Part shown: positions 1,803 through 16,868 of the stretch, one piece after another | How the letters are laid out: every line of letters starts with the position of its first letter | How positions within the stretch are numbered: the stretch's first letter is position 1 | From: Escherichia phage CBA6 | DNA length: 25,803 nt | Reading direction: 5' to 3' (one strand) | Sequence record: KM389300.1 | The notes under the pieces: model-generated | What the model saw: only the letters and a program-made list of their open reading frames with translations | Told to the model about the DNA's origin: nothing | Databases searched by the model: none | Made by a program: the position numbers and the translations under genes

Positions 1803-3074
1803 ATGAACGATACACAAATAAAATGTGAAGAGACTTCATCTGGTGTCAACGATTTCGTAAACCACTGGATTGATTTAGTCAACCAAAAAACGATATTCAA
1901 CACTCTTTCACTCAGTCGTGACCAGGTTCACTGGGAAGACTATCTTTACAAACACACCCCGTGCGAACTCGTTGCCAACCCCGAAACCAATCAGCAGGTC
2001 TGGTTCAAGCGTGAAGACTACTTCGCGCCGCTGTCCAATTATGCAAATGGCCAGCAGGGCATTAATGGGAGCAAACTCCGTCAGGCCATCTGGCTCATGA
2101 TGGAGCATCTTAAAGCGGGAGGATCCCCAGATCTTATCCATGGTACTGTCGTTGGTAGTCCGCAGTCCCCTATGGCGACGGCAGTCTCACGGCATTTCGG
2201 CGGCAAGACAACCACTGTGCTGGGTGCCACTAAACCAACCACATGCATGAACCATGATATGGTTTCAATGTCAGCATGGTTTGGTAGTGAATTTAACTTT
2301 GTTGGATCTGGTTACAATAGCACCATTCAGCCGCGCTGTAAGAAACTCATTGAACAATTAAATCCAAAGGCGTATTATCTGGAATATGGCATTACATTGG
2401 ATCATACCGTTCATTCACCAGAACGCATTGCTGGATTCCATATGCTGGGTGGTGAGCAGGTTGCCAATATCCCAGACCATATCACTGATCTGATCATTCC
2501 TGCTGGTTCTTGTAATTCATGCACCAGTATCCTGACAGGTTTGGCGATGCATCCGAAACCAAATCTGAAGAATGTCTATCTGATCGGGATTGGACCTAAC
2601 CGATTAGATTTCATTGAAAGTCGTTTGCGCATTATCGGTAAGCAAGCAAACCTCCCTCACATAACTGATTTCACTCGTCGCTATCACGACAACCCAGACT
2701 ATGTGTATGGTAAGAAGGATCTTCAGCATGCCTCTAAGAGCGTTTCGTTGGCTGGCCTCCTAAGTGGTATCAGGCCAAAGAACGAGCCGGATATCGTGCT
2801 TCCTCGCTTTGAGGTACACCATTGGGATCTTCATACCACTAATTGGGTTCGTTACAACGACCTCATGGATTACCAGTGGGGGGATATTGAGTTGCATCCT
2901 CGTTATGAAGGTAAGGTCATGACATGGATACAGGAACACAAACCAGAATTGCTTAATGAGAACTCATTGTTTTGGATCGTGGGGAGCAAGCCATATCTGG
3001 AAGCGATGAAAGCTGCTTGTCCTGAATTATCAATCCCCGAACATGTCCCTGTGAATGAGTTTGTCCCCAGCTAA
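1803..3074 (+). CDS. PLP-dependent enzyme, ACC deaminase / D-cysteine desulfhydrase fold (tryptophan synthase beta-like, fold type II)
   Basis: Family motifs in order: FKREDYFAP...NGSKLRQ (KRDD...GGNKLRKLE block with candidate PLP lysine), VVGSPQSPMATAVSRHFG (GxxQSNHxR phosphate loop), IIPAGSCNSCTSILTGLA, HPRYEGKVM (DPVYTGKAM block), IVGSKP (HTGG block); 423 aa with a C-terminal extension. Confidence 0.75.
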   Translation: MNDTQIKCEETSSGVNDFVNHWIDLVNQKTIFNTLSLSRDQVHWEDYLYKHTPCELVANPETNQQVWFKREDYFAPLSNYANGQQGINGSKLRQAIWLMMEHLKAGGSPDLIHGTVVGSPQSPMATAVSRHFGGKTTTVLGATKPTTCMNHDMVSMSAWFGSEFNFVGSGYNSTIQPRCKKLIEQLNPKAYYLEYGITLDHTVHSPERIAGFHMLGGEQVANIPDHITDLIIPAGSCNSCTSILTGLAMHPKPNLKNVYLIGIGPNRLDFIESRLRIIGKQANLPHITDFTRRYHDNPDYVYGKKDLQHASKSVSLAGLLSGIRPKNEPDIVLPRFEVHHWDLHTTNWVRYNDLMDYQWGDIELHPRYEGKVMTWIQEHKPELLNENSLFWIVGSKPYLEAMKAACPELSIPEHVPVNEFVPS

Positions 3075-3084
3075 TCCATCCTAA

Positions 3085-3112
3085 ATACCCCATACGGACC
3101 AGTGTGGGGTAT
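3085..3112 (+). promoter_or_regulatory. hairpin immediately upstream of the ART-like gene start
   Basis: 8-bp stem ATACCCCA (3085..3092) pairing with TGGGGTAT (3105..3112), 12-nt loop; the G-run (3106..3109) that could act as SD for ATG 3115 lies in the 3' arm; no T-tract. Confidence 0.35.
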
Positions 3113-3114
3113 CT

Positions 3115-3564
3115 ATGAAAACCTTTCTAGAATTTTATCGCGAATCAACGCTACCTGATTTTACGAATATCGTTTTGTATCATGGGTCTAATGTTGAATT
3201 CGATATATTTGATTTTGAAAAATTTGGCCAGACTGACTCTGGTACGATGGGTGCTGGGTTTTACCTGACGGGGGATCCAGAAAAGGCACAGATCTACGCA
3301 GAAAATGCCGTGCGCTATCGTCAATCTGGTGAACCTATTGTCATGGCATTTCGTGTCAAGGCCAAGAAGACTCTTGTAATAGATTCCAACAATGTTTCGG
3401 TGTGGGAAAATAAAATGCGAGAGTTGGGGATAAAGCCTGGTAAGATACATGATAATGTGAAAGAACTTATCAACAAAGGGTTCGATTCCATAGCCTCTAT
3501 AAGTGCCAATAACGTTGAGGAAATGGTGGTGTTTAAGCCAGGGTTGGCGACCAGAGAAGCCTAA
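3115..3564 (+). CDS. putative H-Y-E class ADP-ribosyltransferase (diphtheria toxin / PARP-like minimal catalytic domain), 149 aa
   Basis: YHGS (His23); GAGFYLTGD with Tyr50 and a second Tyr61 exactly 11 residues later (as in DT Tyr54/Tyr65 and PARP1 Tyr896/Tyr907); NNVEEMVVF (Glu135/Glu136) near the C-terminus; function is inferred from motifs only. Confidence 0.5.
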   Translation: MKTFLEFYRESTLPDFTNIVLYHGSNVEFDIFDFEKFGQTDSGTMGAGFYLTGDPEKAQIYAENAVRYRQSGEPIVMAFRVKAKKTLVIDSNNVSVWENKMRELGIKPGKIHDNVKELINKGFDSIASISANNVEEMVVFKPGLATREA

Positions 3565-3599
3565 ATAGTCCAAAGCGGTTTATTCAAGAGGACATTACC

Positions 3600-4058
3600 A
3601 TGCCAATTTCGAAATTATTTGAATCTGATTCCCCAGCAGATATGCCTATCTGGACTGGTGTTCAAGACGGGACTACGATTGAATTCTTTGAGCGCGGGGA
3701 AACAGGCGCTGAAGAGATTTATGCTTCCGTACAAGGGACAGACGTCGTCCGCGCCGCCGTAGCTCTTGCTACATTTTTAGAGGACGCCCCGATTGACGGT
3801 ATCCCGTTTGAAGCCCATGTGGACCCAGAAGACCCGACGTCTATCATCATTACAGTCCAGGGTGCTGAATATACATCTTACAGTATTGAGCACGATGAAG
3901 AAACAGGGGCGCTGTTTATAGCCACGGATCTTCAATTGGAAGATGACGAAATTGAATATCTGAAACAGAATGGTCGTCTTCCGGAGTACTCTGACGAAGA
4001 ATTGGATTCTGCGTTTGATGAAGTAGACGATGAAGACGACTTTTGGGATGGGAAATAA
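3600..4058 (+). CDS. highly acidic hypothetical protein (152 aa), possible DNA mimic or partner of the ART-like protein
   Basis: ATG at 3600 with SD AGAGGA (3587..3592); very Asp/Glu-rich, ending DEVDDEDDFWDGK; 35 nt after the ART-like gene. Confidence 0.6.
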   Translation: MPISKLFESDSPADMPIWTGVQDGTTIEFFERGETGAEEIYASVQGTDVVRAAVALATFLEDAPIDGIPFEAHVDPEDPTSIIITVQGAEYTSYSIEHDEETGALFIATDLQLEDDEIEYLKQNGRLPEYSDEELDSAFDEVDDEDDFWDGK

Positions 4059-4088
4059 ACAAAGGGGCTTAATGCCCCTTTGTTTTAG
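4057..4088. terminator. bidirectional intrinsic terminator between convergent genes
   Basis: Stem AAAGGGGC (4061..4068) / GCCCCTTT (4074..4081), loop TTAAT; T-tract on both strands; sits between the + gene ending at 4058 and the - gene ending at 4085. Confidence 0.75.
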
Positions 4089-4459
4089 ATATCGTTTGTG
4101 TGTACTGTGAATCTCATTGTTACGACATCTGTTCTTTCATCCTTGTGTAATTCGAACTTCAAACCTTCCTTCAGAAGACTCGCCACCAACAATGTTTTGA
4201 ACTTTTCGACTTGCTTGTCTGTTGGGTATTTTTGAGACTTATATGCCTGTTGAAATGCGGTTAATATTTCGTCAAACCTGTGGCCACCAACAGCGTACAC
4301 CATGTCATCAATTTCAACTCCGCGATTTGCTTGGGAAACGAGTTGCTTCTTCATTTTACAAACAAAGATATCAACGGCTTTTTCAACTATCCCCATGGCT
4401 TCCCAAATCTGAGCCTGGTCAATCGTAGTCTGTAATTCTTGTGCGAAGTTCTTCATCAT
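4085..4459 (-). CDS. hypothetical protein (124 aa)
   Basis: ATG at 4459 (- strand) with SD GAGGAAGG; start overlaps the stop of the upstream - strand gene (ATGA overlap), suggesting translational coupling. Confidence 0.55.
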   Translation of the reverse strand: MMKNFAQELQTTIDQAQIWEAMGIVEKAVDIFVCKMKKQLVSQANRGVEIDDMVYAVGGHRFDEILTAFQQAYKSQKYPTDKQVEKFKTLLVASLLKEGLKFELHKDERTDVVTMRFTVHTNDI

Positions 4460-4998
4460 TTCACCTTCCTCGTTGGATATTGGTTAAAGAGTTTGCCCAG
4501 CTTGGACACATTGATAATCGTCTGAGTCTTCCAGCGCTCGATCCCCTCTGGTGTAGTCACGGTTAGGATTGAATAACCCCATATATGGGAACCATTCAGC
4601 ACAGCCGCGCTGTGCCCACCAATTTTGTCTTCCAGTTTACAAATGAAAGACTCATATTGCATCGCAGCGTTTCGACGTGCTTCTTTGACAAACAGAGCAT
4701 GGCGCTCAGGATCAGCTTTGACAATATCCGGCTTCCCAGGTATGTAAGAAGGATTCACTGCCTGGGTCAAAGAACGGTAGAGCGCATGTTTTGATTTCAT
4801 TCGTTGGTAATCTGGATCACCAAACTTGACACCAACCGAAGATGGCCACGGAGCGCACTTCTCGACGTCCCAGCCGTTGGATGCCAGATCGTCCATTATG
4901 TTCTTGATGACTTTGTTCGCGTACTGCTCAGCAGCATTCTCAGCATCAACCAGCAGAGGCTCAACTGCGATACGGACAGGAGTTTTTGGCATATTCAT
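4456..4998 (-). CDS. hypothetical protein (181 aa from the SD-supported start)
   Basis: Preferred start ATG at 4998 (MNMPKTPV...) with SD AAGGA 8 nt upstream; the alternative ATG at 5046 directly abuts the upstream stop and lies inside a hairpin; contains KHALY and ERHALF motifs of unknown meaning. Confidence 0.5.
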   Translation of the reverse strand: MNMPKTPVRIAVEPLLVDAENAAEQYANKVIKNIMDDLASNGWDVEKCAPWPSSVGVKFGDPDYQRMKSKHALYRSLTQAVNPSYIPGKPDIVKADPERHALFVKEARRNAAMQYESFICKLEDKIGGHSAAVLNGSHIWGYSILTVTTPEGIERWKTQTIINVSKLGKLFNQYPTRKVK

Positions 4999-5021
4999 GA
5001 TATAGTCCTTCAGTTCAAAGT

Positions 5022-5039
5022 AAGCCCCCGAAGGGGCTT
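5022..5039 (-). terminator. GC-rich hairpin, possible weak terminator or RNA stability element
   Basis: AAGCCCC / GGGGCTT stem with 4-nt loop directly after the stop (5047..5049) of the upstream - strand gene; downstream T-run is weak. Confidence 0.35.
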
Positions 5040-5046
5040 CAGTCAT

Positions 5047-5577
5047 TTAGATACGGGAATCCAACCATGCATTCTTTTCATTCTGCCATTCCCAAGCGGC
5101 CTGACCACCAGCCATGATAACTTCCAGAGAAGGAGTATTGTCATCCTCGCCACCGTGTAGGTCTGGGTCAAATCCATCATCTTCAGGATCGTCTTCACAT
5201 TCGTTCTGATATGCGGAATATTCAATATAATGCGCTTCGGCTTCGCAATCCATGTCTCCTAGAGCAGTCTCAAGAGTCATTTTACCTTCGGCAATCAGCT
5301 CAGCCGTTGCGTCGTCCAGACCTGCGTCTTTCGCTTCAACGAACAGTTCGTGACGTTTCTGGAAGAAAAAGAACTGCATTGCGTCGCAGTGGTTGTCGAA
5401 CTTCTGTTTGAGTTCGCAACGAACACCCTTGACAACCGGATGGTAAACCACCATGTAACGGCCAGCAGAAATTTTGTCACCGTTTATAGCAGCGCCGAAG
5501 AAGTTACCGAAGACTTGGCCTTCGCCTGCGTCGCACAGAACGGTATTTTTGTTTGCTGTTTCTGCTAAAATTTTCAT
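5047..5577 (-). CDS. hypothetical protein (177 aa) with strongly acidic C-terminal half
   Basis: Start ATG at 5577 (MKILAETANK...) with SD AAGGAAA, about 45 nt downstream of the early-type promoter; the longer ORF to 5757 is an SD-less extension; C-terminal half rich in D/E. Confidence 0.55.
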   Translation of the reverse strand: MKILAETANKNTVLCDAGEGQVFGNFFGAAINGDKISAGRYMVVYHPVVKGVRCELKQKFDNHCDAMQFFFFQKRHELFVEAKDAGLDDATAELIAEGKMTLETALGDMDCEAEAHYIEYSAYQNECEDDPEDDGFDPDLHGGEDDNTPSLEVIMAGGQAAWEWQNEKNAWLDSRI

Positions 5578-5626
5578 GATGTATTTCCTTCTCTTCAGAT
5601 TGTTGTTTGTTCGTACTACAATTAGA

Positions 5627-5655
5627 AGTATACGCCAGTTATTGAAGAAGTAAAC
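5627..5655 (-). promoter_or_regulatory. T4 early-type (sigma70-like) promoter on the - strand
   Basis: On the - strand: -35 GTTTAC (5655..5650), 17-nt spacer, -10 TATACT (5632..5627), with an A/T-rich block upstream (5656..5680); positioned to drive the gene starting at 5577. Confidence 0.5.
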
Positions 5656-5672
5656 TTTATTCAATAAATATT

Positions 5673-5885
5673 TTAATAAATTTTGAACTCTGCTCCCCTG
5701 TATGTCGCCGATCCTCGTTCTATGAGGCCGTCGGGGACAATTACCTTTGTGGGCCATCCGCCGTCCGGTGCTTTGACAGTCAGGCGTGTCTTATGATCAC
5801 CCAGCTGAATCTGTTCGTAAATCCTTCCTCTCACTATCGTCGCCCCGCCTTGGGTGACCAGCAATCTCTTGTTTACCACTTTCAT
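5673..5885 (-). CDS. small hypothetical protein (70 aa)
   Basis: Single ATG at 5885; AAGGA lies only 1-2 nt from the ATG (poor spacing) and the gene sits between a terminator and a downstream promoter, so expression is uncertain. Confidence 0.4.
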   Translation of the reverse strand: MKVVNKRLLVTQGGATIVRGRIYEQIQLGDHKTRLTVKAPDGGWPTKVIVPDGLIERGSATYRGAEFKIY

Positions 5886-5889
5886 TCCT

Positions 5890-5921
5890 TAACACCAAAA
5901 GAAAGGGGAGTTTCCTCCCCT
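5890..5921 (-). terminator. intrinsic terminator (- strand)
   Basis: Stem AGGGGAG (5904..5910) / CTCCCCT (5915..5921), loop TTTC; on the - strand it is followed by TTTCTTTTGG; lies just after the stop of the membrane-protein gene. Confidence 0.6.
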
Positions 5922-5926
5922 CTAAC

Positions 5927-6499
5927 TTATTTCTTCAGATCAGGCCACGCACCAGAGGTCGCAGTAGACCCAGCTGGGGGAGCAGACTCAAGATCGGGAG
6001 AACCCGACTGAGTAACAACAGTGGGATCTTTGTTAACCACTTTGACCCCAAACTGTTTGAGAGCATCCACAGCTTGCGCCTTCCGGCTATTGCTTTTGTA
6101 ATGGTTGTACCCCTTGATACCGAATGATGCACTAATTGCTGTCAATAGCGAAGCAGTATACCAATCAGGCGCTGTTTCAAGGGCTTGCATACCATCAATT
6201 ACTGCTTTGATGAAATCCCCTTTATGATACTCGGTGGGGAACATTAGAAGTTCCACAACCGGAGCGATCATAACAAGGATAGCGGGAACAGCCAAAACGA
6301 TTGTCCAGAATTCATCTTTCCAAGATCCGCCGACTTCGGTAATCTTAGAAAGTTCCCATTCTGAAGAAGACTTTATTGCCTCCAGTTTAACATCGTGTTT
6401 AGCCTGAACAATTTCCCGCTTATATTGCACCAAATCAGTCCCAAGATTCCAGAGTTGCTTTAGCGCCCCTGGAATCATGCTCACAAAGGGGATTGCCAT
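5927..6499 (-). CDS. membrane protein (191 aa), central hydrophobic helix; divergent from the DNA polymerase gene
   Basis: Start ATG at 6499 (MAIPFVSM...) with SD GGAG 7 nt upstream; central TM segment FWTIVLAVPAILVMIAPVV; Ser/Thr/Pro-rich C-terminus; ORF extends to 6559 but without SD. Confidence 0.55.
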   Translation of the reverse strand: MAIPFVSMIPGALKQLWNLGTDLVQYKREIVQAKHDVKLEAIKSSSEWELSKITEVGGSWKDEFWTIVLAVPAILVMIAPVVELLMFPTEYHKGDFIKAVIDGMQALETAPDWYTASLLTAISASFGIKGYNHYKSNSRKAQAVDALKQFGVKVVNKDPTVVTQSGSPDLESAPPAGSTATSGAWPDLKK

Positions 6500-6528
6500 T
6501 TTAAACTCCTTGGTCATTGAACGTTCCT

Positions 6529-6568
6529 CGGTTAAATTACGGGGACGTGCTGACGGCACGGTTAACCG
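6529..6568 (+). promoter_or_regulatory. structured leader of the DNA polymerase gene, candidate translational operator
   Basis: Inner hairpin CGTGC (6546..6550) / GCACG (6556..6560) with loop TGACG, nested in an outer stem CGGTTAA (6529..6535) / TTAACCG (6562..6568) whose 3' end abuts the SD GGAG (6568..6571); ATG at 6579. Confidence 0.4.
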
Positions 6569-6578
6569 GAGACAAACA

Positions 6579-9575
6579 ATGACTGTTTTCTATACGAACG
6601 TTGCCCGACAGGGTAACGACCTTCTGATTCGTATCGCAGACGACAACGGCAATCGCCGCATGTTGCGTAAGAAATTCGAACCCACCTTGTATTTACCCAC
6701 AGCTGATTATTCCAAAGTTGAAAAGATTGGCCTCCTCAATGAACCGTTGGTGTCTAAAAAGTTTGCATCAATGCGAGACGCTGACAACTATCTTGAGGAG
6801 TACAAGGAGGTCGAAGGGGCTGCGGTGTATGGACAAACGGATTATGCATATCAATTCATCGCCCATAGTTTTCCTGGGATGATCACACCTGATTATTCAA
6901 ATATCCACATCGCCAACGTGGATATCGAAGTGTTCTCGGCTGGTTGGCGTGACGGAGAAATGACTAAAGGTCCATTCCCACACGCAACGATTGAATCTCA
7001 CACGTTTAAAGGCAGCGAGGCGCGGGTTCGTCGTTTCCATAAGCAAGTACTGGCCAACCATGATTTCGTTCGGGAGCATTTCCCTGGTTCCTTTATTTCC
7101 AATAACGTGACTGACCAATTCCCTATAATTGACAGTAACGGTAAAATCACACAGAACATGAATGCGGCGTTCCCTATTACGCTGATACAGCTCCAAGATA
7201 TGAATACCAATAAATTCTATGTCTGGGGCATGCCGTGTTCCAAGGATCGCCATAAATTCAAATATGACCCCAATGATGAAGAAGTCGGCGGTCTTGAGGT
7301 TGAATATAAAGAATATACGACGGAACAAGATCTGCTTCGCGCCTTCTTAGATTACTGGTCGGAACGTCAATTTGACGGTTGGACGGGGTGGAACATTGAA
7401 ACGTTCGATAGCCCCTATTTGGTTGAACGAATTATGCAGGTTCTTGGTGAATCTGAAGCCCAGCGCCTCAGTCCTTGGGGTAAACTCAAGAAACGTTTCA
7501 TCAAAGACCGTAAAGGCGACGTGACTTCTTATCAATTCGTGGGTTGTCCTATGATGGACTACATGCAAGTTTACAAGAAACACACTTACACCACCCGCGA
7601 AAAATACTCACTGGACTGGATCGCTTATTGTGAACTCGGTGAGAAGAAGTTGGATTATAGTGAAAGCAAATCATTGTATGACCTTTATTTCAATGATTAT
7701 TGCAAGCATACGCGATATGGTATCAAAGACGTCAAGCTGGTGTGGCGCTTAGAACAAAAACTGCGTTTGATACAGCTGATGTTTGTATTGGCTTATCGCA
7801 CTAAATCCAACTATGAAGACGGTCTCGGCACTGTAGCACCGTGGCTGGCAATGTGCTATTATCGTCTTTATGAGAAGGGGATTGTCCCGAAAATCCAGCG
7901 CGTCTATGATGGGCCAACAGATTTTGAAGGCGCATATGTCATGGAGGTTGCCCCAGGGATATATTTCTGGGTCTTCTCTGAGGACTTAAACTCCCTGTAT
8001 CCCCACATCATACAGCAATACAACCTTGGTCCAGAGACTATCGTTTCTGATAAGCACACACGCCGTGATATTATTGAGGCCATGTGTGAGGAATTGACCA
8101 AAGCGATGAATGATATGACAACGCCGATGAATAAACGTCGTCATCTCAAAAATCTTCACGACAAGTTGCAGCGTGCTATTGATGAACGCATACAAGTTGT
8201 TGATGAATTGGTCGCGCTGGGCGAATTCCATTTTGAAACACTACGCCGATATAACGTTTCGTTTACCCCGAACGTTCAGTTCTTCAGTAATGAGAAGATG
8301 TCCTTCCTTTCCGAAATTATGCGAGGCATATACGCTGACCGTAAAGGAGAGAAAGCAACTGGCCTGAAGTATGAGCAATGGGCTGGTTGGTGTAAGGAAA
8401 TGTCTAAAGGTGATTTCCACCTTGAATCCGCCATGAAGTCTCGTTTCTACGATCCTGAATGGTATGAAGAACACAAGCACATCGATCTTGATCACCTGAC
8501 TGAAGTCATGCACAAGTGGGAAGATCTGGGGGTTGCTCAAGATACGTTACAACAAGGTCTGAAGATCTTGATGAACGCAGGTTATGGCGCAATCTCCAAC
8601 GTCTGGTTTAAAGAATACTTCAACATCAACATCGCTGAAGCAATCACCACTTCCGGCCAGCTGATCAACAAATGGAACAAACGCCACACCGATGATTATC
8701 TGAACAAACTTTGCGGCACTACTGGTCAGGATTTTGTTATCGCGGGTGATACTGACTCCAACTACATTTGCATTGAACGTCTGGTCAAGCAATTGTGGCC
8801 TGAAGAAAAGGATCATCACAAACTCGTTGATAACATTGACCAATGGATCAAAGAGAATTACCAGCCAAAAACCAGTGAATGGGCGCAGTTGTTGTGTAAT
8901 ACCATGAACGGGTTTGAGCAGCGCATGGTCTGGGAACGTGAGGTCATCGCATCGTCTGCTGTATGGCGAGCCAAGAAGATGTATTGCATGGCAGTATACG
9001 ATAGCGAAGGCATCAAGTATGAGAAGCCAAAGATCAAATTCAAAGGTCTGGAAGCGCGTAAATCTACAACGCCGGAATGGTGTCGTGAGCGTCTGGTTAA
9101 ATGCTATGAGAAAGTTCTGCTGGGGACGGAGGCTGAAGTTCAGGAATTGATCGCGGGTTATAAGAAGGAATATATGGAATTAACCGTGGATGATATTGCT
9201 CAAGCCTCTGGCGTTAGTGATATTGAGAAGTGGTTAGACGGCAACGGAAATTATATCAGTGGCACACACTTTGCTGCCAAGGCTTGTATTATGTACAACA
9301 AGCTGATAGACAAGCATGAAGACCTCGGTCTCCCGCCGATAGAATCTGGCGATAAGGTTAAAATCATTAACCTGAAACCTGGGAACCCTGTGGGGAACGA
9401 CCGCATAGCCTTCCCTGACTTCCTCCCTCCGGAGTTGGGGCTGGATAAGTGGGTAGATTACCACACCACGTTTGAAAAGACCTTCATAGAGCCGATTCAG
9501 TCTATTCTAGACGTGGTTGGTTGGTCTCACAAACGTCGAGTTAATCTGTTGTCCATGATGGGCAAGAAAGGTTGA
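6579..9575 (+). CDS. DNA polymerase, family B (T4 gp43-like), 999 aa
   Basis: N-terminus MTVFYTNVARQGN... resembles T4 gp43 MKEFYISIETVGN...; exo I motif VDIEVF; motif A DLNSLYPHII; motif C IAGDTDSNYI; start at 6579 chosen for SD GGAG (6568..6571) rather than the SD-less ORF start at 6477. Confidence 0.93.
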   Translation: MTVFYTNVARQGNDLLIRIADDNGNRRMLRKKFEPTLYLPTADYSKVEKIGLLNEPLVSKKFASMRDADNYLEEYKEVEGAAVYGQTDYAYQFIAHSFPGMITPDYSNIHIANVDIEVFSAGWRDGEMTKGPFPHATIESHTFKGSEARVRRFHKQVLANHDFVREHFPGSFISNNVTDQFPIIDSNGKITQNMNAAFPITLIQLQDMNTNKFYVWGMPCSKDRHKFKYDPNDEEVGGLEVEYKEYTTEQDLLRAFLDYWSERQFDGWTGWNIETFDSPYLVERIMQVLGESEAQRLSPWGKLKKRFIKDRKGDVTSYQFVGCPMMDYMQVYKKHTYTTREKYSLDWIAYCELGEKKLDYSESKSLYDLYFNDYCKHTRYGIKDVKLVWRLEQKLRLIQLMFVLAYRTKSNYEDGLGTVAPWLAMCYYRLYEKGIVPKIQRVYDGPTDFEGAYVMEVAPGIYFWVFSEDLNSLYPHIIQQYNLGPETIVSDKHTRRDIIEAMCEELTKAMNDMTTPMNKRRHLKNLHDKLQRAIDERIQVVDELVALGEFHFETLRRYNVSFTPNVQFFSNEKMSFLSEIMRGIYADRKGEKATGLKYEQWAGWCKEMSKGDFHLESAMKSRFYDPEWYEEHKHIDLDHLTEVMHKWEDLGVAQDTLQQGLKILMNAGYGAISNVWFKEYFNINIAEAITTSGQLINKWNKRHTDDYLNKLCGTTGQDFVIAGDTDSNYICIERLVKQLWPEEKDHHKLVDNIDQWIKENYQPKTSEWAQLLCNTMNGFEQRMVWEREVIASSAVWRAKKMYCMAVYDSEGIKYEKPKIKFKGLEARKSTTPEWCRERLVKCYEKVLLGTEAEVQELIAGYKKEYMELTVDDIAQASGVSDIEKWLDGNGNYISGTHFAAKACIMYNKLIDKHEDLGLPPIESGDKVKIINLKPGNPVGNDRIAFPDFLPPELGLDKWVDYHTTFEKTFIEPIQSILDVVGWSHKRRVNLLSMMGKKG

Positions 9576-9635: not shown

Positions 9636-9980
9636 ATGAAACTCAATAAGATTCTTCTGGTGTGTGCTCTGGCTTTCTCTACCACTGCATGCTCTACCCT
9701 TCTGGACGTTGCGTCTACTGTTGACCTCGATGCGCCGACGTTCACCAATCAGCAAGCGGTGAATAAGATGGAAGACACCATCAAGGCACATGCAGCTTTG
9801 GACAACACCACTCCTGGTCCGTTGCAAACTGTTTGCAATTATGATGATTCCATCCAGGAAGATGAAACCTATCACTGCACCACTTACGTGAAGGAATCTT
9901 CTGTGGTTCTGTATGCCGATTGCACCGAAGAGCAATGCACCGCAACGGGTTATGACAATGTGGAGAAATCTGATGAATAA
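9636..9980 (+). CDS. putative lipoprotein (114 aa)
   Basis: ATG at 9636; N-terminus MKLNKILLVCALAFSTTAC resembles a signal peptide with a lipobox-like Cys; acidic, Cys-containing mature part; the ORF track start at 9618 is TTG. Confidence 0.5.
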   Translation: MKLNKILLVCALAFSTTACSTLLDVASTVDLDAPTFTNQQAVNKMEDTIKAHAALDNTTPGPLQTVCNYDDSIQEDETYHCTTYVKESSVVLYADCTEEQCTATGYDNVEKSDE

Positions 9981-10755
9981 TCACGTTGGTCTGTATGACG
10001 CATGTTCTAAAATTGGCGGGTTATATCGCGTTCTGGTGGATGTGGATTTGACTCTGGTTGATTCCCTATCGCCGTGGGTTGAATGGTTCAATATTTCTAA
10101 TTCTAAAGCCGCTGCGGAAAATATGGGATGTCACGACTACCCATCTGAATTTCAACCAATCACCAAAGAGTGTTATATGTCACACGCTGGTGATCTGGCG
10201 ATCCTCATGCGTGAACGCGCGCATCCGGCCTGGTTAACGCGCCGTGTATTCGTTGCTGGTCAGTGGATGGATTCGCCAACAGGACGTGATCCGATGGATT
10301 GGTGGCGTATGCCTGATCTGTATTCCAGAATGTCACCACTGCCAGGGGCTGTTGAATTCCTTACGAATTTAAAGGCCGCTCTCCTTCAGAAGTTTGAGCA
10401 AGTGGAAATGGTGGCTGTTACAAAATGCGAACCGGAACACGAACGCAGCAAGCGTCAGTTCATATACCATCACTTTGAATCGTTGATTAATGGGTTCGTG
10501 AGCACGGATGAAAAGCATCTGCTTGCTGGCGATGTCCTGATCGACGACAATCCGAAGTATGTTGAGCCGTGTGCCCTGAATAACATCTTCGTCATCTTCG
10601 TCCCTCAGGGCAATTATGAAAAACTGGATCTTTCGAATTGCGAGGATATGCTTTATATTAAGCATGTAGAAGGCCAAAACCACTTTGACTTCTTGAATCG
10701 TAACCTCGATGAAGTGGTGAATCGCCTGGTTTCTCATTATCAATATGTCCGATAG
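9973..10755 (+). CDS. HAD-superfamily phosphatase, 5'(3')-deoxyribonucleotidase-like (260 aa)
   Basis: Start ATG 9973 with SD GGAG (9962..9965), overlapping the upstream stop; HAD motif I VLVDVDLTLVD (DxDxT) and motif IV GDVLIDDNP. Confidence 0.65.
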   Translation: MNNHVGLYDACSKIGGLYRVLVDVDLTLVDSLSPWVEWFNISNSKAAAENMGCHDYPSEFQPITKECYMSHAGDLAILMRERAHPAWLTRRVFVAGQWMDSPTGRDPMDWWRMPDLYSRMSPLPGAVEFLTNLKAALLQKFEQVEMVAVTKCEPEHERSKRQFIYHHFESLINGFVSTDEKHLLAGDVLIDDNPKYVEPCALNNIFVIFVPQGNYEKLDLSNCEDMLYIKHVEGQNHFDFLNRNLDEVVNRLVSHYQYVR

Positions 10756-10764
10756 GAGCACATC

Positions 10765-11070
10765 GTGCAAGAACAAAATAAAGTTGTAGAAAGCCCTGAC
10801 AAGCGTTCCGGTGACAGTGATATGGATGGTATCATTATCCATGTAAACAACTTCATCCGTAATCAGAATCCACCAACTTCCGTTGGCGCAGCGTTGGAAT
10901 TAAAACGAGTTCTGATTGAAAACGGTATGGCACCTGATGACGACGAAATTTTCTATAACTTTGATGACCAGTATAAAGTGAAGTTTGTTGAGAATGGTCA
11001 TCCGCAAGTTGCCGTGTTTTGGGCACCTTGGTTGGGTGGAGTGAGTTGGCGCATTGAGGATGCTGCATAA
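10765..11070 (+). CDS. hypothetical protein (101 aa)
   Basis: GTG start at 10765 with SD TAGGAG (10753..10758); stop overlaps the kinase start (TAATG at 11068..11072). Confidence 0.5.
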   Translation: MQEQNKVVESPDKRSGDSDMDGIIIHVNNFIRNQNPPTSVGAALELKRVLIENGMAPDDDEIFYNFDDQYKVKFVENGHPQVAVFWAPWLGGVSWRIEDAA

Positions 11071-11984
11071 TGGCAAAGATCATCGTAATCAAAGGAACCA
11101 GCGGCACGGGTAAAGGCACTCGTGTCGTACAGTTCATCGAGTGGCTCCGCACTAAGCTGAAGCCGACTGAATTGTCGTACACTGTTGGGGATAAGACGCG
11201 CTCCTTCGGCCTGAAATTTGAAGAGCTGAAGTTAATCTTCGTCGGCCAATACACAGTGTCCAATAAATCCGGCCTGGCGTCTTGGACCTCTATGGACGCC
11301 ATTCATGCTGCCACAGGCTCTGGGGATATTGCTCGCGACCTCGTCAAGGGTTGGCTGGCTCAGGGATATACCCTGGTGTGTGAGGGCGAACCTCTGATGC
11401 TGTCGGACAAGTGGCGTCCTGAATGGATGTTCAATAACTATCCGATTGATTCTTTGGCGCTGCTGTACTTTGCATATCCAGACCGCTATCAGTACGATGC
11501 CCGCATCCGTGGACGCTCTGGTAAAGAAGCGGGGGATTCCGGCTGGTCGCGCAACGAATCTTACTCCAAGGAGTTCGAGAAGTCCAAGGCTGAAATGCTG
11601 GCGCTTGGCTGGAATGTTGCCGTGGATGATTACAGTGGGCAAGACGTTTTGTACCACCAAACGGCTACGAACACCCAAGAATTCAAGACTGGGAATGATA
11701 GCGAATTGGCTATGTTGCCGTTCGACGCCCCGTTGTGGGTGGTGGGTAATGCTATCTATCATCAGCTTGGCACAGTTTGCCGCGCTAACAATCTGATGTC
11801 GAAAGACTTCTACGGCTATTGCGAAACCAATCCGATGACGCGTGAAGTCGGCGGTCAGGATCCTTTGGCTCACAGAGTGCCTGAGAAGCCGCAGAAGGCA
11901 TCCAAAACTAAAAACAAGGCCGTCGCCAAGGAAGAACCAAAGACCTCATCCGTGTCCCTTCTGGGGCTAATGCGTAAGGTGTAG
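11070..11984 (+). CDS. P-loop kinase, NMP-kinase-like Walker A; candidate nucleic-acid (5-hydroxymethyl-pyrimidine DNA) kinase
   Basis: N-terminal Walker A GTSGTGKGT (the GxxGxGKGT form typical of adenylate/NMP kinases) at residues 9-17; 304 aa; C-terminal tail KTSSVSLLGLMRKV matches the polymerase tail. Confidence 0.7.
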   Translation: MAKIIVIKGTSGTGKGTRVVQFIEWLRTKLKPTELSYTVGDKTRSFGLKFEELKLIFVGQYTVSNKSGLASWTSMDAIHAATGSGDIARDLVKGWLAQGYTLVCEGEPLMLSDKWRPEWMFNNYPIDSLALLYFAYPDRYQYDARIRGRSGKEAGDSGWSRNESYSKEFEKSKAEMLALGWNVAVDDYSGQDVLYHQTATNTQEFKTGNDSELAMLPFDAPLWVVGNAIYHQLGTVCRANNLMSKDFYGYCETNPMTREVGGQDPLAHRVPEKPQKASKTKNKAVAKEEPKTSSVSLLGLMRKV

Positions 11985-12192: not shown

Positions 12193-12543
12193 ATGAAAAT
12201 TCTTATTCCACGCAATGCCATTGCTATTGCTGTTGACTATCGTGGCGATGCCAATATGATTAACGCTGTCCGATATTATCCGGAACAGAATAAAATCATT
12301 CCCCAATTCCAGCTGAACACCAATCCATCTTCTAAAGATTTCGGTGCATGGCGGCAAATTGGGTTGGCACGGACTCAGGTTAATGCCCAGCATTATATTT
12401 CTGAAAAAACGAAAACCGCCAAGCAAATCTGGGTAGTATCCAATGACCGTCGGTTCCTTCCAATTTGGTCTTTGGGCCAGCCCGTTTTAAACCCTGAAGA
12501 TATCCAACTCGAAGCCGAGGTGAAGGATGACGCATCTATCTAA
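12193..12543 (+). CDS. hypothetical protein (116 aa)
   Basis: ATG at 12193 with SD AGGA (12183..12186); the ORF track start at 12169 is TTG. Confidence 0.5.
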   Translation: MKILIPRNAIAIAVDYRGDANMINAVRYYPEQNKIIPQFQLNTNPSSKDFGAWRQIGLARTQVNAQHYISEKTKTAKQIWVVSNDRRFLPIWSLGQPVLNPEDIQLEAEVKDDASI

Positions 12544-13762
12544 AATGCCGACAGGTTATACGCCTCCGGCTGAATGGAAGTACCCAATTGATTTGTCAAT
12601 CGATTATCGTAAGCCAGAGAATCGGATGTATCTGCTCAAAGCATGGGTGGAGGCGCTGTCGTATACGGAAGAACACAACCAACAAGTTCGTCTGATGGAT
12701 TATGCGATTGAAGTCACTGAAGGCATTACGCAGCTTGAGAAGATCGAGCGCAAGATCTGGATGGCGTTCCTTTGGGGCTGTTGTTATAATGGGATTGGCC
12801 CATGGACGATTTATAGTGAGTTTCCTGTACCGCCTCAGTCACCACAAGAGTTCAAGCGATTCTGTGATTGGTATAACCTGAACTTCGAGCGTATGCGATT
12901 CGATACTGATTGCCGCTATCGCAAATCGAAGATGATCCCGTGTGTTCAGTCCTACATTGATTGGCTGGCTGGTCGTACTCAGATGGATGCTTTCCGTCCG
13001 TTGTTGGAGACTAAACTGCAAAGTGATCAATTCGTTAAGCTATGGGACACGGCTATGGGGTGGAAATACTTCGGTCGCCTGAGCGCCTGGAACTTCCTGG
13101 AAGCCCTGAACATGGTATTCGGCAACATGTATCAGATCGACGTCCCTGGGTTCATGTTGCGTGACCGTGATGGTAGTGAGTCCAACCGCAACGGCGCGGC
13201 ATTCTTGTCAAACCGTGACGACTGGGTGACCAAGCACGGAAAGAAAAAGATCAACGGCTGTCCTATCACCGATGAAGAATGCGACATCCTTGAGGCTGAT
13301 CTTGAACAGGCATTCAAAGATTGTGTCGCCGAGTTTGGTCACATCACGTTCATCAATCGTTTGAACTTTGAGACTTCCGGCGCTTGTTGGCTTAAGAAAT
13401 TCTTCCGTCTGAAAAACACTCGTTACATCGGGTGGGATGCCGAGCGTACTTGGGATGAGATCGACTACATGGAACGCATCTGGCCTGAGTACTCCTGTAA
13501 GGCATTATGGGAAGCCCGTTCCCTCTGGCTACCAGATACCCTGTTATGCGAAAAAGCTCCTGCAGGGCACGTTCCTGGCGTCCAGAAGTGGAAGATGCCT
13601 GTGTTCTTTGAGACGGGTGTTCCTCTACATATATGGCACCTGCAGCAGGGTACGCGTTGGGAACCATCTGAGGTTTACACTAATCTGAAAATGCCCGTCC
13701 GGAAGATAGATGACAATCCGAAGTCGACCAGTGTAAACCTCATGTCTTTGTTGAAACGATGA
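12527..13762 (+). CDS. hypothetical Trp-rich enzyme (411 aa); candidate DNA base-modifying transferase carrying the polymerase-like C-terminal tail
   Basis: ATG at 12527 with SD GAGGTG (alternative in-frame ATG at 12545); no motif I can name; C-terminal tail KSTSVNLMSLLKR matches the polymerase and kinase tails; two genes downstream of the kinase. Confidence 0.6.
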   Translation: MTHLSKMPTGYTPPAEWKYPIDLSIDYRKPENRMYLLKAWVEALSYTEEHNQQVRLMDYAIEVTEGITQLEKIERKIWMAFLWGCCYNGIGPWTIYSEFPVPPQSPQEFKRFCDWYNLNFERMRFDTDCRYRKSKMIPCVQSYIDWLAGRTQMDAFRPLLETKLQSDQFVKLWDTAMGWKYFGRLSAWNFLEALNMVFGNMYQIDVPGFMLRDRDGSESNRNGAAFLSNRDDWVTKHGKKKINGCPITDEECDILEADLEQAFKDCVAEFGHITFINRLNFETSGACWLKKFFRLKNTRYIGWDAERTWDEIDYMERIWPEYSCKALWEARSLWLPDTLLCEKAPAGHVPGVQKWKMPVFFETGVPLHIWHLQQGTRWEPSEVYTNLKMPVRKIDDNPKSTSVNLMSLLKR

Positions 13763-13770
13763 TATAAATA
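13763..13770 (+). promoter_or_regulatory. T4 late-type promoter box TATAAATA
   Basis: Exact TATAAATA at 13763..13770, about 30 nt upstream of the ATG at 13801; the only exact copy I found in the window. Confidence 0.5.
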
Positions 13771-13968: not shown

Positions 13969-13996
13969 TCTGACTGCGATTGCGTTCTTCAATAAA

Positions 13997-14034
13997 GGGG
14001 AATGGGTTATTATTAGCCCGTTCCCCTTTCTTTT
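13997..14034 (+). terminator. intrinsic terminator
   Basis: 10-bp stem GGGGAATGGG (13997..14006) / CCCGTTCCCC (14017..14026) with one G-U pair, then TTTCTTTT; preceded by the conserved 18-mer CGTTCTTCAATAAAGGGG (13983..14000). Confidence 0.75.
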
Positions 14035-16807: not shown

Positions 16808-16822
16808 TCGTTCTTCAATAAA

Positions 16823-16856
16823 GGGGGATAGGGTATTATTGCTCTATCCTCTTTTT
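16823..16856 (+). terminator. intrinsic terminator
   Basis: Stem around GGATAG (16826..16831) / CTATCC (16844..16849), extended by G-U pairs, then TTTTT (16852..16856); preceded by the same 18-mer CGTTCTTCAATAAAGGGG (16809..16826) as at 13983. Confidence 0.7.
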
Positions 16857-16868
16857 ATGGAATGTAAT

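What the first reader, a model, noticed from the sequence alone, without database searches (positions are those of the whole stretch)
4085..6499. Five-gene island on the opposite strand with its own early-type promoter and terminators
All flanking genes run left to right, but 4085..6499 holds five - strand genes: a membrane protein, a 70-aa protein, a protein with an acidic tail, a 181-aa protein and a 124-aa protein. The island is bounded by a bidirectional terminator at 4057..4088 and the divergent polymerase leader at 6500..6578, and it has an internal T4 early-type promoter (5627..5655) and internal hairpins. None of the five products has a motif I can name. Inverted, self-contained cassettes of unknown small genes in a replication region are typical sites for host-takeover or anti-defence functions.
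Basis: partly seen in the sequence, partly recalled or inferred. Interest (0 to 1): 0.5.

Follow-up and report, generated by a model that had tools for sequence, protein, structure and literature searches.

The report
Leftward accessory gene block beside polymerase
This is the well-conserved, opposite-strand gene block that sits next to the DNA polymerase gene in ViI-like (Kuttervirus) phages: a probable lysis (holin) gene plus a small partner, followed by a promoter-driven string of dispensable, frequently swapped genes of unknown function; it is real but mostly ordinary.

Summary
Window 4085-6517 carries five real minus-strand genes (A124, B180, C176, D70, E196) between a perfect bidirectional terminator (4060-4083) and the divergent DNA polymerase gene. 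All other genes in the window are plus-strand.

The window is a Kuttervirus (Ackermannviridae) genome segment, and the same block occurs in more than 260 deposited genomes. It is not one self-contained cassette.

- **E** is present in every genus sampled and always lies divergent from pol. It belongs to a large family (phrog_2524). Short relatives of that family sit in the lysis cassettes of podophages, next to or fused with endolysins. E is therefore most likely the holin, and a few records already annotate it so.
- **D** accompanies E, downstream of a conserved terminator.
- **C, B and A** follow a T4-early-type promoter and leader that is 97-100% identical across genera. They are swapped, fused or deleted between and within genera at conserved linkers.

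None of the five proteins matches a named family. B gives a high-confidence model with no structural match to any characterised protein.

The parts
4060..4083 (.). Bidirectional intrinsic terminator closing the leftward block and the rightward virion-protein genes.
   Evidence: Perfect palindrome with T-runs on both strands. Predicted energy -19.6 kcal/mol. Terminators on both strands are annotated at the same place in AG3.
4085..4459 (-). A124: 124-aa protein of unknown function (phrog_6044). Its start overlaps the stop of B (ATGA).
   Evidence: ORF. PHROG E-value 4e-65. tblastn finds it in only 124 phage records. A very divergent member is present in Limestonevirus PP35. It is reduced to a 40-aa remnant in Kuttervirus D5lw.
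4456..4998 (-). B180: 180-aa basic protein (pI 9.3), phrog_4687. Three long helices pack against a six-stranded sheet. The C-terminal motif WKTQxIINVSKLGKLFNQxPTRKVK is strongly conserved.
4996..5011 (-). Linker GAAGGACTATATCATG (ribosome-binding site plus start codon). It is single-copy here. In relatives it is duplicated on either side of an extra 49-54-aa ORF.
   Evidence: Alignment of the C-B junction in six genomes. Two unrelated small ORFs, phrog_12990 and phrog_25715, occupy this slot in relatives.
5022..5039 (-). Conserved hairpin AAGCCCC-UUCG-GGGGCUU immediately after C. There is no T-run here. In Taipeivirus it is followed by a T-run and the block ends.
   Evidence: -14.0 kcal/mol. 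It is present in all six genomes aligned.
5047..5577 (-). C176: acidic protein (pI 4.3), phrog_4823. It has a variable N-terminal third, a conserved helical centre, an acidic linker, and the conserved C-terminal motif GGEDDNTPxLEVIMAGGQAAWEYQNEKNAWLDSR.
   Evidence: It is only 67% identical to the copy in most Kuttervirus genomes, but 91% identical to Agtrevirus Gloob and 87-88% to some Klebsiella phages. At nucleotide level only the 3' two-thirds align to other Kuttervirus genomes. AF2 gives pLDDT 71.6, and the fold search was uninformative.
5578..5680 (-). Conserved regulatory spacer: A+T-rich upstream element, -35 GTTTACT (5654-5649), 16-nt spacer, -10 TATACT (5632-5627), a leader of about 40 nt, and a Shine-Dalgarno sequence AAGGAAA in front of C. 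It overlaps the last codons of D.
   Evidence: It is 97-100% identical in Kuttervirus, Agtrevirus and Taipeivirus, while the flanking genes are 80-90% identical. It is found in 280 phage records.
5673..5885 (-). D70: 70-aa basic protein (pI 10.1), phrog_4732. It starts about 17 nt after the terminator of E.
   Evidence: Found in 267 phage records. A 28%-identical member is present in Miltonvirus phiMAM1. In Limestonevirus its first ~51 codons are fused to B.
5902..5923 (-). Intrinsic terminator or attenuator after E.
   Evidence: Stem of 9 pairs followed by CTTTTGG. Predicted energy -15.5 kcal/mol. The outer GGGG/CCCC stem is conserved and the hairpin is kept in Taipeivirus with a different inner stem and loop (GGGGCTTCGGCCCC against GGGGAGGAAACTCCCC).
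5927..6517 (-). E: membrane protein, 190 aa from the conserved start at 6499 or 196 aa from the ATG at 6517. It belongs to phrog_2524 and carries an invariant SWKDE motif before its transmembrane segment. Probable holin.
   Evidence: It lies next to and divergent from pol in all eight genomes from five genera. The lysis-cassette context of short homologues is shown. Two relatives are fused to endolysin domains and a few give weak holin-family hits. It is annotated 'holin' in PP35, D5lw and Serratia 3M.
6518..6578 (.). Divergent pol/E spacer containing the invariant palindrome CGTGCCGTCAGCACG (6546-6560). Neither promoter could be identified.
   Evidence: Alignment of eight genomes. In the pol sense, a hairpin forms about 19 nt upstream of the pol ATG at 6579.

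Best explanation
The region is the standing leftward gene block of ViI-like phages, and it has two parts with different behaviour.

**Part 1: E, its terminator, and D.** E is a two-segment inner-membrane protein of a large, uncharacterised holin-like family, and most likely the phage's holin. It would accumulate in the membrane and at a set time open holes that let an endolysin encoded elsewhere in the genome reach the cell wall. D is a small basic protein reached by read-through of E's terminator.

**Part 2: C, an optional small ORF, B and A.** This string of non-essential genes is transcribed by host sigma-70 RNA polymerase from a conserved T4-early-type promoter. These genes are exchanged, fused or lost by homologous recombination at short conserved linkers: the promoter and leader, the GGGG/CCCC hairpins, and a 16-nt RBS-plus-start repeat. 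This is the same logic as the hyperplastic regions of T4-type phages.

**What is shown and what is inferred.**
- Shown: the anatomy, the conservation pattern, the recombination junctions, and the lysis-cassette context of E's relatives.
- Inferred: holin activity, early timing, promoter and terminator activity, and any host-directed role of C, B and A.
For: **E as a holin.**
- E is present and divergent from pol in five genera.
- The family numbers 1005 clusters at 50% identity, mostly of 115-135 aa.
- In Pseudomonas phage K4 the homologue lies two genes from a Phage_lysozyme (9e-47) and next to a protein with a transmembrane segment plus coiled coil.
- In four groups of marine podophage contigs the homologue shares an operon with a Peptidase_M15_3 gene. 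It overlaps that gene by 4 nt in two groups.
- Of 93 relatives sampled, two are fused to endolysin domains, three weakly match PF11351 (GTA holin), and one matches a PHROG annotated as holin.
- E has one strong and one weak hydrophobic segment, and the first part of its C-terminal tail is rich in Lys/Arg.
- The CBA120, AG3 and Sa157lw papers report that no holin had been found (PMC3184105, PMC3121705, PMC9686305).

**The accessory part.**
- tblastn hits fall away from pol: E 334 records, D 267, C 245, B 225, A 124.
- D5lw lacks B and most of A. KN2-1 ends after C. AG3 has another gene in place of B. PP35 carries a D::B fusion.
- The promoter spacer is 97-100% identical across genera, against 80-90% for the neighbouring genes.
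- The small-ORF indel is flanked by the 16-nt repeat.
- The 5' third of C is replaced relative to other Kuttervirus genomes.
- The PeSL precedent is described in PMC2839356 and PMC4122927.
Against: - No endolysin or spanin gene lies near E in this window.
- E's own promoter was not found, and there is no TATAAATA late-promoter motif in the block.
- The window protein itself does not reach any Pfam holin model.
- The holin-family hits among relatives are weak (E = 0.0035 at best) and few.
- An antiholin or other lysis regulator would show the same genomic context as a holin.
- The promoter matches only 9 of 12 consensus positions, and the window holds just one copy.
- The GC-rich hairpins are not adjacent to the promoter, unlike in true PeSLs.
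- B is strongly conserved in sequence across distant phages, which is unusual for a fast-turnover accessory gene.
Confidence: 0.6

Rival explanations
1. One reading: all five genes form one self-contained early cassette whose products take over the host or inhibit its defences.
For: - The promoter is of T4-early type and is highly conserved.
- The products are ORFans with no named family.
- C is strongly acidic and has a swapped N-terminal domain, as expected for a protein in an arms race.
- B and A are dispensable in D5lw.
Against: - E is core to the family and D nearly so. E's relatives sit in lysis cassettes.
- A conserved terminator separates E from the rest, and the promoter lies downstream of both E and D.
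- No hit to any defence-related model was found. No anti-defence library was available to test directly.
Confidence: 0.15
2. E is a membrane protein of the lysis or superinfection pathway but not the holin itself. It could be an antiholin or lysis-timing regulator, or a superinfection-exclusion protein comparable in role to T4 rI, Imm or Sp.
For: - The lysis-cassette context would be the same for such proteins.
- CBA120 shows lysis inhibition at high multiplicity (PMC3184105).
- E has a 60-aa C-terminal extension that the short homologues lack.
- E lies far from any endolysin gene.
Against: - In the K4 and marine cassettes no other product of the operons read combines membrane segments with holin size, so the E homologue fills the holin slot.
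- The endolysin fusions and weak holin-family hits point to the holin itself.
Confidence: 0.2
3. The block encodes conserved, essential replication-associated functions. For example, E could anchor the replisome to the membrane, and B could be a nucleic-acid-binding factor. Its position next to pol would then be functional.
For: - E is invariably adjacent to pol.
- The block lies within a replication and thymidine-hypermodification region.
- B is basic with a conserved Lys/Arg-rich C-terminus.
Against: - C, B and A are each missing from viable relatives.
- E's relatives in podophages lie in late/lysis operons, not replication modules.
- No similarity to any replication protein was found.
Confidence: 0.05

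Closest known systems
Orthologous block in published ViI-like phages: CBA120 D = orf235, the Det7 184-188 region, the AG3 orf00229-orf00234 region, D5lw D5_00022-25
   Same: Same position, strand, terminators and promoter. Proteins are 94-100% identical, except C.
   Different: This window carries the less common C allele, otherwise seen in Agtrevirus and Taipeivirus. It also lacks the 49-aa ORF between C and B.
Hyperplastic regions and PeSL (early promoter plus stem-loop) cassettes of T4-type phages (PMC2839356, PMC4122927)
   Same: Non-essential ORFans sit under a sigma-70-like promoter that has an A+T-rich upstream region. GGGG...CCCC stem-loops are present. Insertions, deletions and replacements are bounded by the conserved regulatory motifs.
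   Different: The promoter and the GC-rich stem-loops are separate elements here, not one composite element. There is only one promoter copy in the window. One recombination linker is an RBS-plus-start 16-mer. None of this has been described for Ackermannviridae in the papers read.
Holins, in particular two-segment (class II) holins and the Pfam family PF11351 (GTA_holin_3TM)
   Same: Small membrane protein with a hydrophilic, partly basic C-terminal tail. Relatives are linked to three different endolysin types. A few relatives give weak PF11351 and holin-PHROG hits.
   Different: The window protein does not score against PF11351. It has a ~65-aa N-terminal soluble or amphipathic region, an invariant SWKDE motif and a 60-aa C-terminal extension. 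In Ackermannviridae it is unlinked from the endolysin gene. Activity has not been tested.

Membership tests
Holin (functional class) | Small protein with at least one transmembrane segment and a hydrophilic, charged C-terminus | tested here: met
   Hydropathy shows a strong segment at aa 70-92 and a weaker one at 118-136. The tail begins NHYKSNSRKAQ...KVVNK.
Holin (functional class) | Gene linked to endolysin and spanin genes | tested here: inconclusive
   Not met in this window: no lysis gene is annotated across the 26 kb. Met for short homologues in K4 and in four marine contig groups, and two relatives are fused to endolysin domains.
Holin (functional class) | Timed, lethal hole formation that releases endolysin | not testable with these tools
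   Requires expression and complementation experiments.
Pfam PF11351 GTA_holin_3TM | Score at or above the family's gathering threshold | tested here: not met
   The window protein gives no hit at E <= 0.1. Three of 93 relatives reach at best E = 0.0035.
PHROG 2524 (unknown function) | Significant match to the family profile | tested here: met
   E = 1.4e-69 over aa 11-158. All 93 sampled relatives match.
PeSL cassettes / hyperplastic region of T4-type phages | [quoted passage not shown] | tested here: met
   GTTTACT-16-TATACT at 5654-5627, with 92% A+T in the 25 nt upstream.
PeSL cassettes / hyperplastic region of T4-type phages | GC-rich (GGGG...CCCC) stem-loop joined to the promoter in one composite, repeated element | tested here: not met
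   The stem-loops lie at 5923-5902, 5039-5022 and 4060-4083, none next to the promoter. There is no second promoter copy in the window. Other genomes show only 2-3 places per genome in total, and the lower-ranked matches listed were partial.
PeSL cassettes / hyperplastic region of T4-type phages | Indels and replacements of ORFans bounded by the conserved motifs | tested here: met
T4-type early promoter | Transcription by unmodified host RNA polymerase early in infection | not testable with these tools
   Only the sequence resemblance and cross-genus conservation are shown. No Kuttervirus transcriptome was found in the literature library.
Known anti-defence or DNA-mimic proteins | Homology to a characterised inhibitor, or a demonstrated effect on a defence system | not tested
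   No anti-defence library was available. PADLOC holds models of defence systems and gave nothing. PDB sequence and fold searches gave nothing. The acidity of C (pI 4.3) is only suggestive.

The most novel reading that the evidence does not exclude
E196 is the long-missing holin of ViI-like phages. It would represent a very large, experimentally untouched holin family (over 1000 clusters at 50% identity, with an invariant SWKDE motif) shared with Zobellviridae and marine podophages, and at most remotely related to GTA holins. In Ackermannviridae the gene has been uncoupled from the endolysin and has gained a 60-aa tail, which might take part in the T4-like lysis inhibition reported for CBA120. 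Separately, B180 would be a widespread phage protein with no structural match to any characterised protein.
Probability: 0.45. Interest if true: 0.45.

Novelty: new member of a known kind. Interest (0 to 1): 0.3.

Why it matters
The founding papers on ViI-like phages stated that no holin could be found and that the promoters at divergent gene junctions were unknown. This block offers one concrete holin candidate. The candidate is already annotated as 'holin' in a few records, but without published evidence.

It also offers one well-supported early promoter and a clear case of linker-mediated gene swapping in a phage family that is widely used for Salmonella and E. coli biocontrol.

For engineering, C, B and A appear to be dispensable, which makes them natural sites for payload insertion. 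Beyond that, the block consists of ordinary accessory genes of unknown function.

Tried and rejected
- **Family searches.** Pfam, NCBIfam and PADLOC scans of all five proteins gave nothing above threshold. The MCR_alpha hit for B (E = 0.002, below cut-off) was dismissed as chance.
- **PDB sequence searches.** Searches with four single sequences and with three family profiles gave nothing.
- **AlphaFold database.** The afdb50 library was not available.
- **Late promoter.** A search for the T4 late-promoter motif TATAAATA found none in the block. The single match in the window, at 13763, is what chance predicts.
- **Second promoter copy.** None was found in the window. The partial matches at 13985 and 16811 turned out to be terminators sharing the prefix TTCTTCAATAAAGGGG.
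- **Promoter for E.** I looked in the 60-80-nt pol/E spacer and in the first codons of pol and found nothing convincing.
- **Context of distant B homologues.** They sit among small unknown genes on large phage contigs, with no recurring neighbour.
- **Literature.** Searches for Kuttervirus or Ackermannviridae transcriptomes, or for anti-defence work on these genes, found nothing relevant.
Full report
**Identity of the window.** The window is a segment of a Kuttervirus genome (Ackermannviridae; ViI/CBA120-like). Megablast of 3500-7000 finds 268 phage records, 165 of which cover at least 80% of the query. In Sa157lw, the five genes of the finding are the only leftward genes across 26 kb. The surroundings are a replication and thymidine-hypermodification region:
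- a family-B DNA polymerase starting at 6579;
- a PLP-dependent enzyme at 1803-3074;
- a 5-hmdU DNA kinase at 11070-11984 (PF18747, E = 2e-168);
- an amino-acid:DNA transferase at 12527-13762 (PF18724);
- NT5C, rIIA and rIIB.

**Check of the observation.** Five minus-strand ORFs lie at 4085-4459 (A124), 4456-4998 (B180), 5047-5577 (C176), 5673-5885 (D70) and 5927-6517 (E196). Each matches a PHROG of unknown function with an E-value between 1e-40 and 1e-112. GC skew is negative only across 4001-6500, as expected for genes that have long resided on the other strand. G+C content is unremarkable.

The bidirectional terminator is a perfect palindrome at 4060-4083 with T-runs on both strands, and a predicted energy of -19.6 kcal/mol. 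Terminator-like sites are enriched across 3000-7500: 12 were found against 4.8 +/- 1.8 expected. The promoter-like site TTTACT-16-TATACT at 5654-5627 is not remarkable as a consensus match, since 7 sites were found against 7.5 expected. Comparison with relatives makes it credible, as described below. The conserved start of E is 6499 (MAIP...), preceded by AAGGAG. The upstream ATG at 6517 reads TTG in Aglimvirinae and Taipeivirus.

**Comparison across relatives.** I mapped the block in eight genomes from five genera, and later added D5lw.

| Genome (genus) | Content of the block |
|---|---|
| Most Kuttervirus | E-D-C-[49-aa ORF]-B-A |
| This window (Kuttervirus) | E-D-C-B-A (49-aa ORF absent) |
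| D5lw (Kuttervirus) | E-D-C plus a 40-aa remnant of A |
| Gloob (Agtrevirus) | E-D-C-[unrelated 54-aa ORF]-B-A |
| AG3 (Agtrevirus) | E-D-C-[another 128-aa gene]-A |
| KN2-1 (Taipeivirus) | E-D-C only |
| PP35 (Limestonevirus) | E, an in-frame fusion of D codons 1-51 to B residues 30-180, and a very divergent A-family gene |
| phiMAM1 (Miltonvirus) | E, a 28%-identical D, and three other genes |

tblastn hits in the phage collection fall with distance from pol: E 334 records, D 267, C 245, B 225, A 124. E is therefore core and D nearly so, while C, the small ORF, B and A are facultative.

**The linkers.** Three non-coding elements are better conserved than the genes around them.
- The 103-nt D-C spacer (5578-5680) is 97-100% identical in Kuttervirus, Agtrevirus and Taipeivirus, while E is 86-87% and D 80-90% identical at nucleotide level. 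It contains a 92% A+T upstream element, GTTTACT, a 16-nt spacer, TATACT, a leader of about 40 nt, and a Shine-Dalgarno sequence.
- The hairpin after E keeps its structure in Taipeivirus with a different inner stem and loop.
- The hairpin AAGCCCC-UUCG-GGGGCUU after C is present in all genomes. In Taipeivirus it acquires a T-run and the block ends there.

The optional small ORF is flanked by a direct repeat of GAAGGACTATATCATG (ribosome-binding site plus start codon). This window and AG3 have a single copy of that 16-mer. The window's C aligns over its full length only with Agtrevirus Gloob. With other Kuttervirus genomes, only the 3' two-thirds align. At protein level this C is 67% identical to the common Kuttervirus allele, 91% identical to Gloob and 87-88% identical to some Klebsiella phages. 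Both alleles occur in more than one genus.

This is modular shuffling by recombination at short conserved regulatory sequences. The process was described for the hyperplastic regions of T4-type phages, where PeSL elements combine a sigma-70-like promoter, an A+T-rich upstream region and a GGGG...CCCC stem-loop (PMC2839356, PMC4122927). The resemblance is functional, not a strict membership. Here the promoter and the GC-rich stem-loops are separate elements, and I found no second copy of the promoter in the window.

**E.** The protein has an invariant SWKDE motif followed by a strongly hydrophobic segment (aa 70-92). A conserved P-[DE]-W-Y...SFGIKG segment (aa 117-136) is weakly hydrophobic. 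The 60-aa tail is basic at its start and is found only in Ackermannviridae. No Pfam or NCBIfam model is matched.

A profile of the family finds 1005 clusters at 50% identity, mostly of 115-135 aa. The genomic context of these short relatives is consistent:
- In Pseudomonas phage K4 the homologue gp59 lies two genes from a Phage_lysozyme (E = 9e-47) and next to a protein with a transmembrane segment plus coiled coil.
- In four groups of marine podophage contigs the homologue shares an operon with a Peptidase_M15_3 gene, overlapping it by 4 nt in two groups.
- In Roseobacter phage CRP-6 an M15 peptidase lies five genes away.

Of 93 relatives scanned, two carry endolysin domains in the same polypeptide (Peptidase_M15_3; Glyco_hydro_108 plus PG_binding_3). 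Three weakly match PF11351 GTA_holin_3TM (best E = 0.0035), and one matches a PHROG annotated as holin. Linkage to three unrelated endolysin types is what one expects of a holin.

Three records already call the Ackermannviridae protein a holin: PP35, D5lw, and UniRef for Serratia 3M. In contrast, the CBA120, AG3 and Sa157lw papers state that no holin was found. I put the probability that E is the holin at about 0.55. An antiholin or another lysis regulator would share the same context. In this phage family the gene is unlinked from any endolysin, and its promoter is unknown.

**D, C, B and A.**
- **D** is a 70-aa basic protein with no detectable relatives outside Ackermannviridae. There is no room for a promoter between E's terminator and D, so D must be expressed by read-through.
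- **C** has a variable N-terminal third, a conserved helical centre, an acidic linker, and a strongly conserved C-terminal motif. Homologues occur among early or nucleotide-metabolism genes of two unrelated phages. The AF2 model is of moderate quality (pLDDT 71.6) and the fold search was uninformative.
- **A** evolves fast: it is 61-63% identical in Agtrevirus, and in Limestonevirus it is recognisable only by profile.

No function can be assigned to any of the four. Early-type promoter control, dispensability, allele swapping and the acidity of C fit host-directed accessory roles. That is an inference, not a finding.

**Verdict.** The block is a known, annotated feature of more than 260 genomes. 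The new points here are:
- the split into a core lysis-type gene and a shuffled accessory string;
- the identification of the recombination linkers;
- the independent context evidence that E is a holin;
- the apparently uncharacterised fold of B.

Interest is low to moderate.

Noticed in passing
window 6546-6560 (within the pol/E spacer 6518-6578): The palindrome CGTGCCGT(C/T)AGCACG is invariant in eight genomes from five genera, while the rest of the spacer varies. In the pol sense it forms a hairpin about 19 nt upstream of the pol start, just before the Shine-Dalgarno sequence. This layout recalls the translational operator through which T4 DNA polymerase represses its own mRNA (from my own knowledge of T4). 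It could equally be a protein-binding site in the divergent promoter region. No covariation is available to test it.
   Followed up: partly
window 3115-3564 (+): This 149-aa protein matches Pfam ART-PolyVal (ADP-ribosyltransferase; E = 4e-10, above the cut-off). By position and size it corresponds to LIMEstone1 ORF173, which was detected in virions by mass spectrometry (PMC3296691; the dinky annotation, calls it a LIMEstone structural protein). It may be an injected ADP-ribosyltransferase analogous to T4 Alt. In Sa157lw the gene appears disrupted: tblastn aligns it in two pieces, and only the 3' part is annotated.
   Followed up: partly
window 3600-4058 (+): This 152-aa protein is extremely acidic (pI 4.05, 41 Asp/Glu against 6 Lys/Arg). 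Its orthologue, LIMEstone1 ORF174, is a low-abundance virion protein. It could be an injected DNA mimic or an internal protein.
   Followed up: no
window 1803-3074, 9913-10755, 11070-11984, 12527-13762 (+): A PLP-dependent enzyme, an NT5C nucleotidase, a 5-hmdU DNA kinase (PF18747, E = 2e-168) and an amino-acid:DNA transferase (PF18724, E = 3e-58) are all present. This looks like a thymidine-hypermodification gene set, and it surrounds the block.
   Followed up: partly
window 13979-14033 and 16810-16858 (+): Two rightward terminators share the prefix GTTCTTCAATAAAGGGG before their stems. This suggests a repeated terminator motif in the genome.
   Followed up: no
L009 (Dickeya phage PP35) 1-4939 and 5633-6193: The polymerase gene of PP35 is split into three pieces by two HNH homing-endonuclease genes. 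Its orf173 is an in-frame fusion of the first ~51 codons of D to residues 30-180 of B.
   Followed up: partly
P0157 (Salmonella phage Vi01 copy of C), alignment A1: In the type phage Vi01, the C homologue diverges completely from the family after the acidic linker and lacks the conserved C-terminal motif. This looks like a frameshift or a sequencing error.
   Followed up: no
phage records OR844942.1 and MN871475.1: Records named 'Enterococcus phage Efm 3-10' and 'Pseudomonas phage Pa-sanjiao' carry Kuttervirus genes that are 100% and 94% identical to A and D respectively. The host labels are probably wrong, or the samples were contaminated.
   Followed up: no
window 6499-6517 (-): In Kuttervirus and phiMAM1, E has two in-frame ATG starts six codons apart, each with its own Shine-Dalgarno-like sequence. 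The extension MTKEFK adds two lysines. This resembles the dual-start holin/antiholin motif of lambda S (from my own knowledge). The upstream codon is TTG in three other genera.
   Followed up: partly
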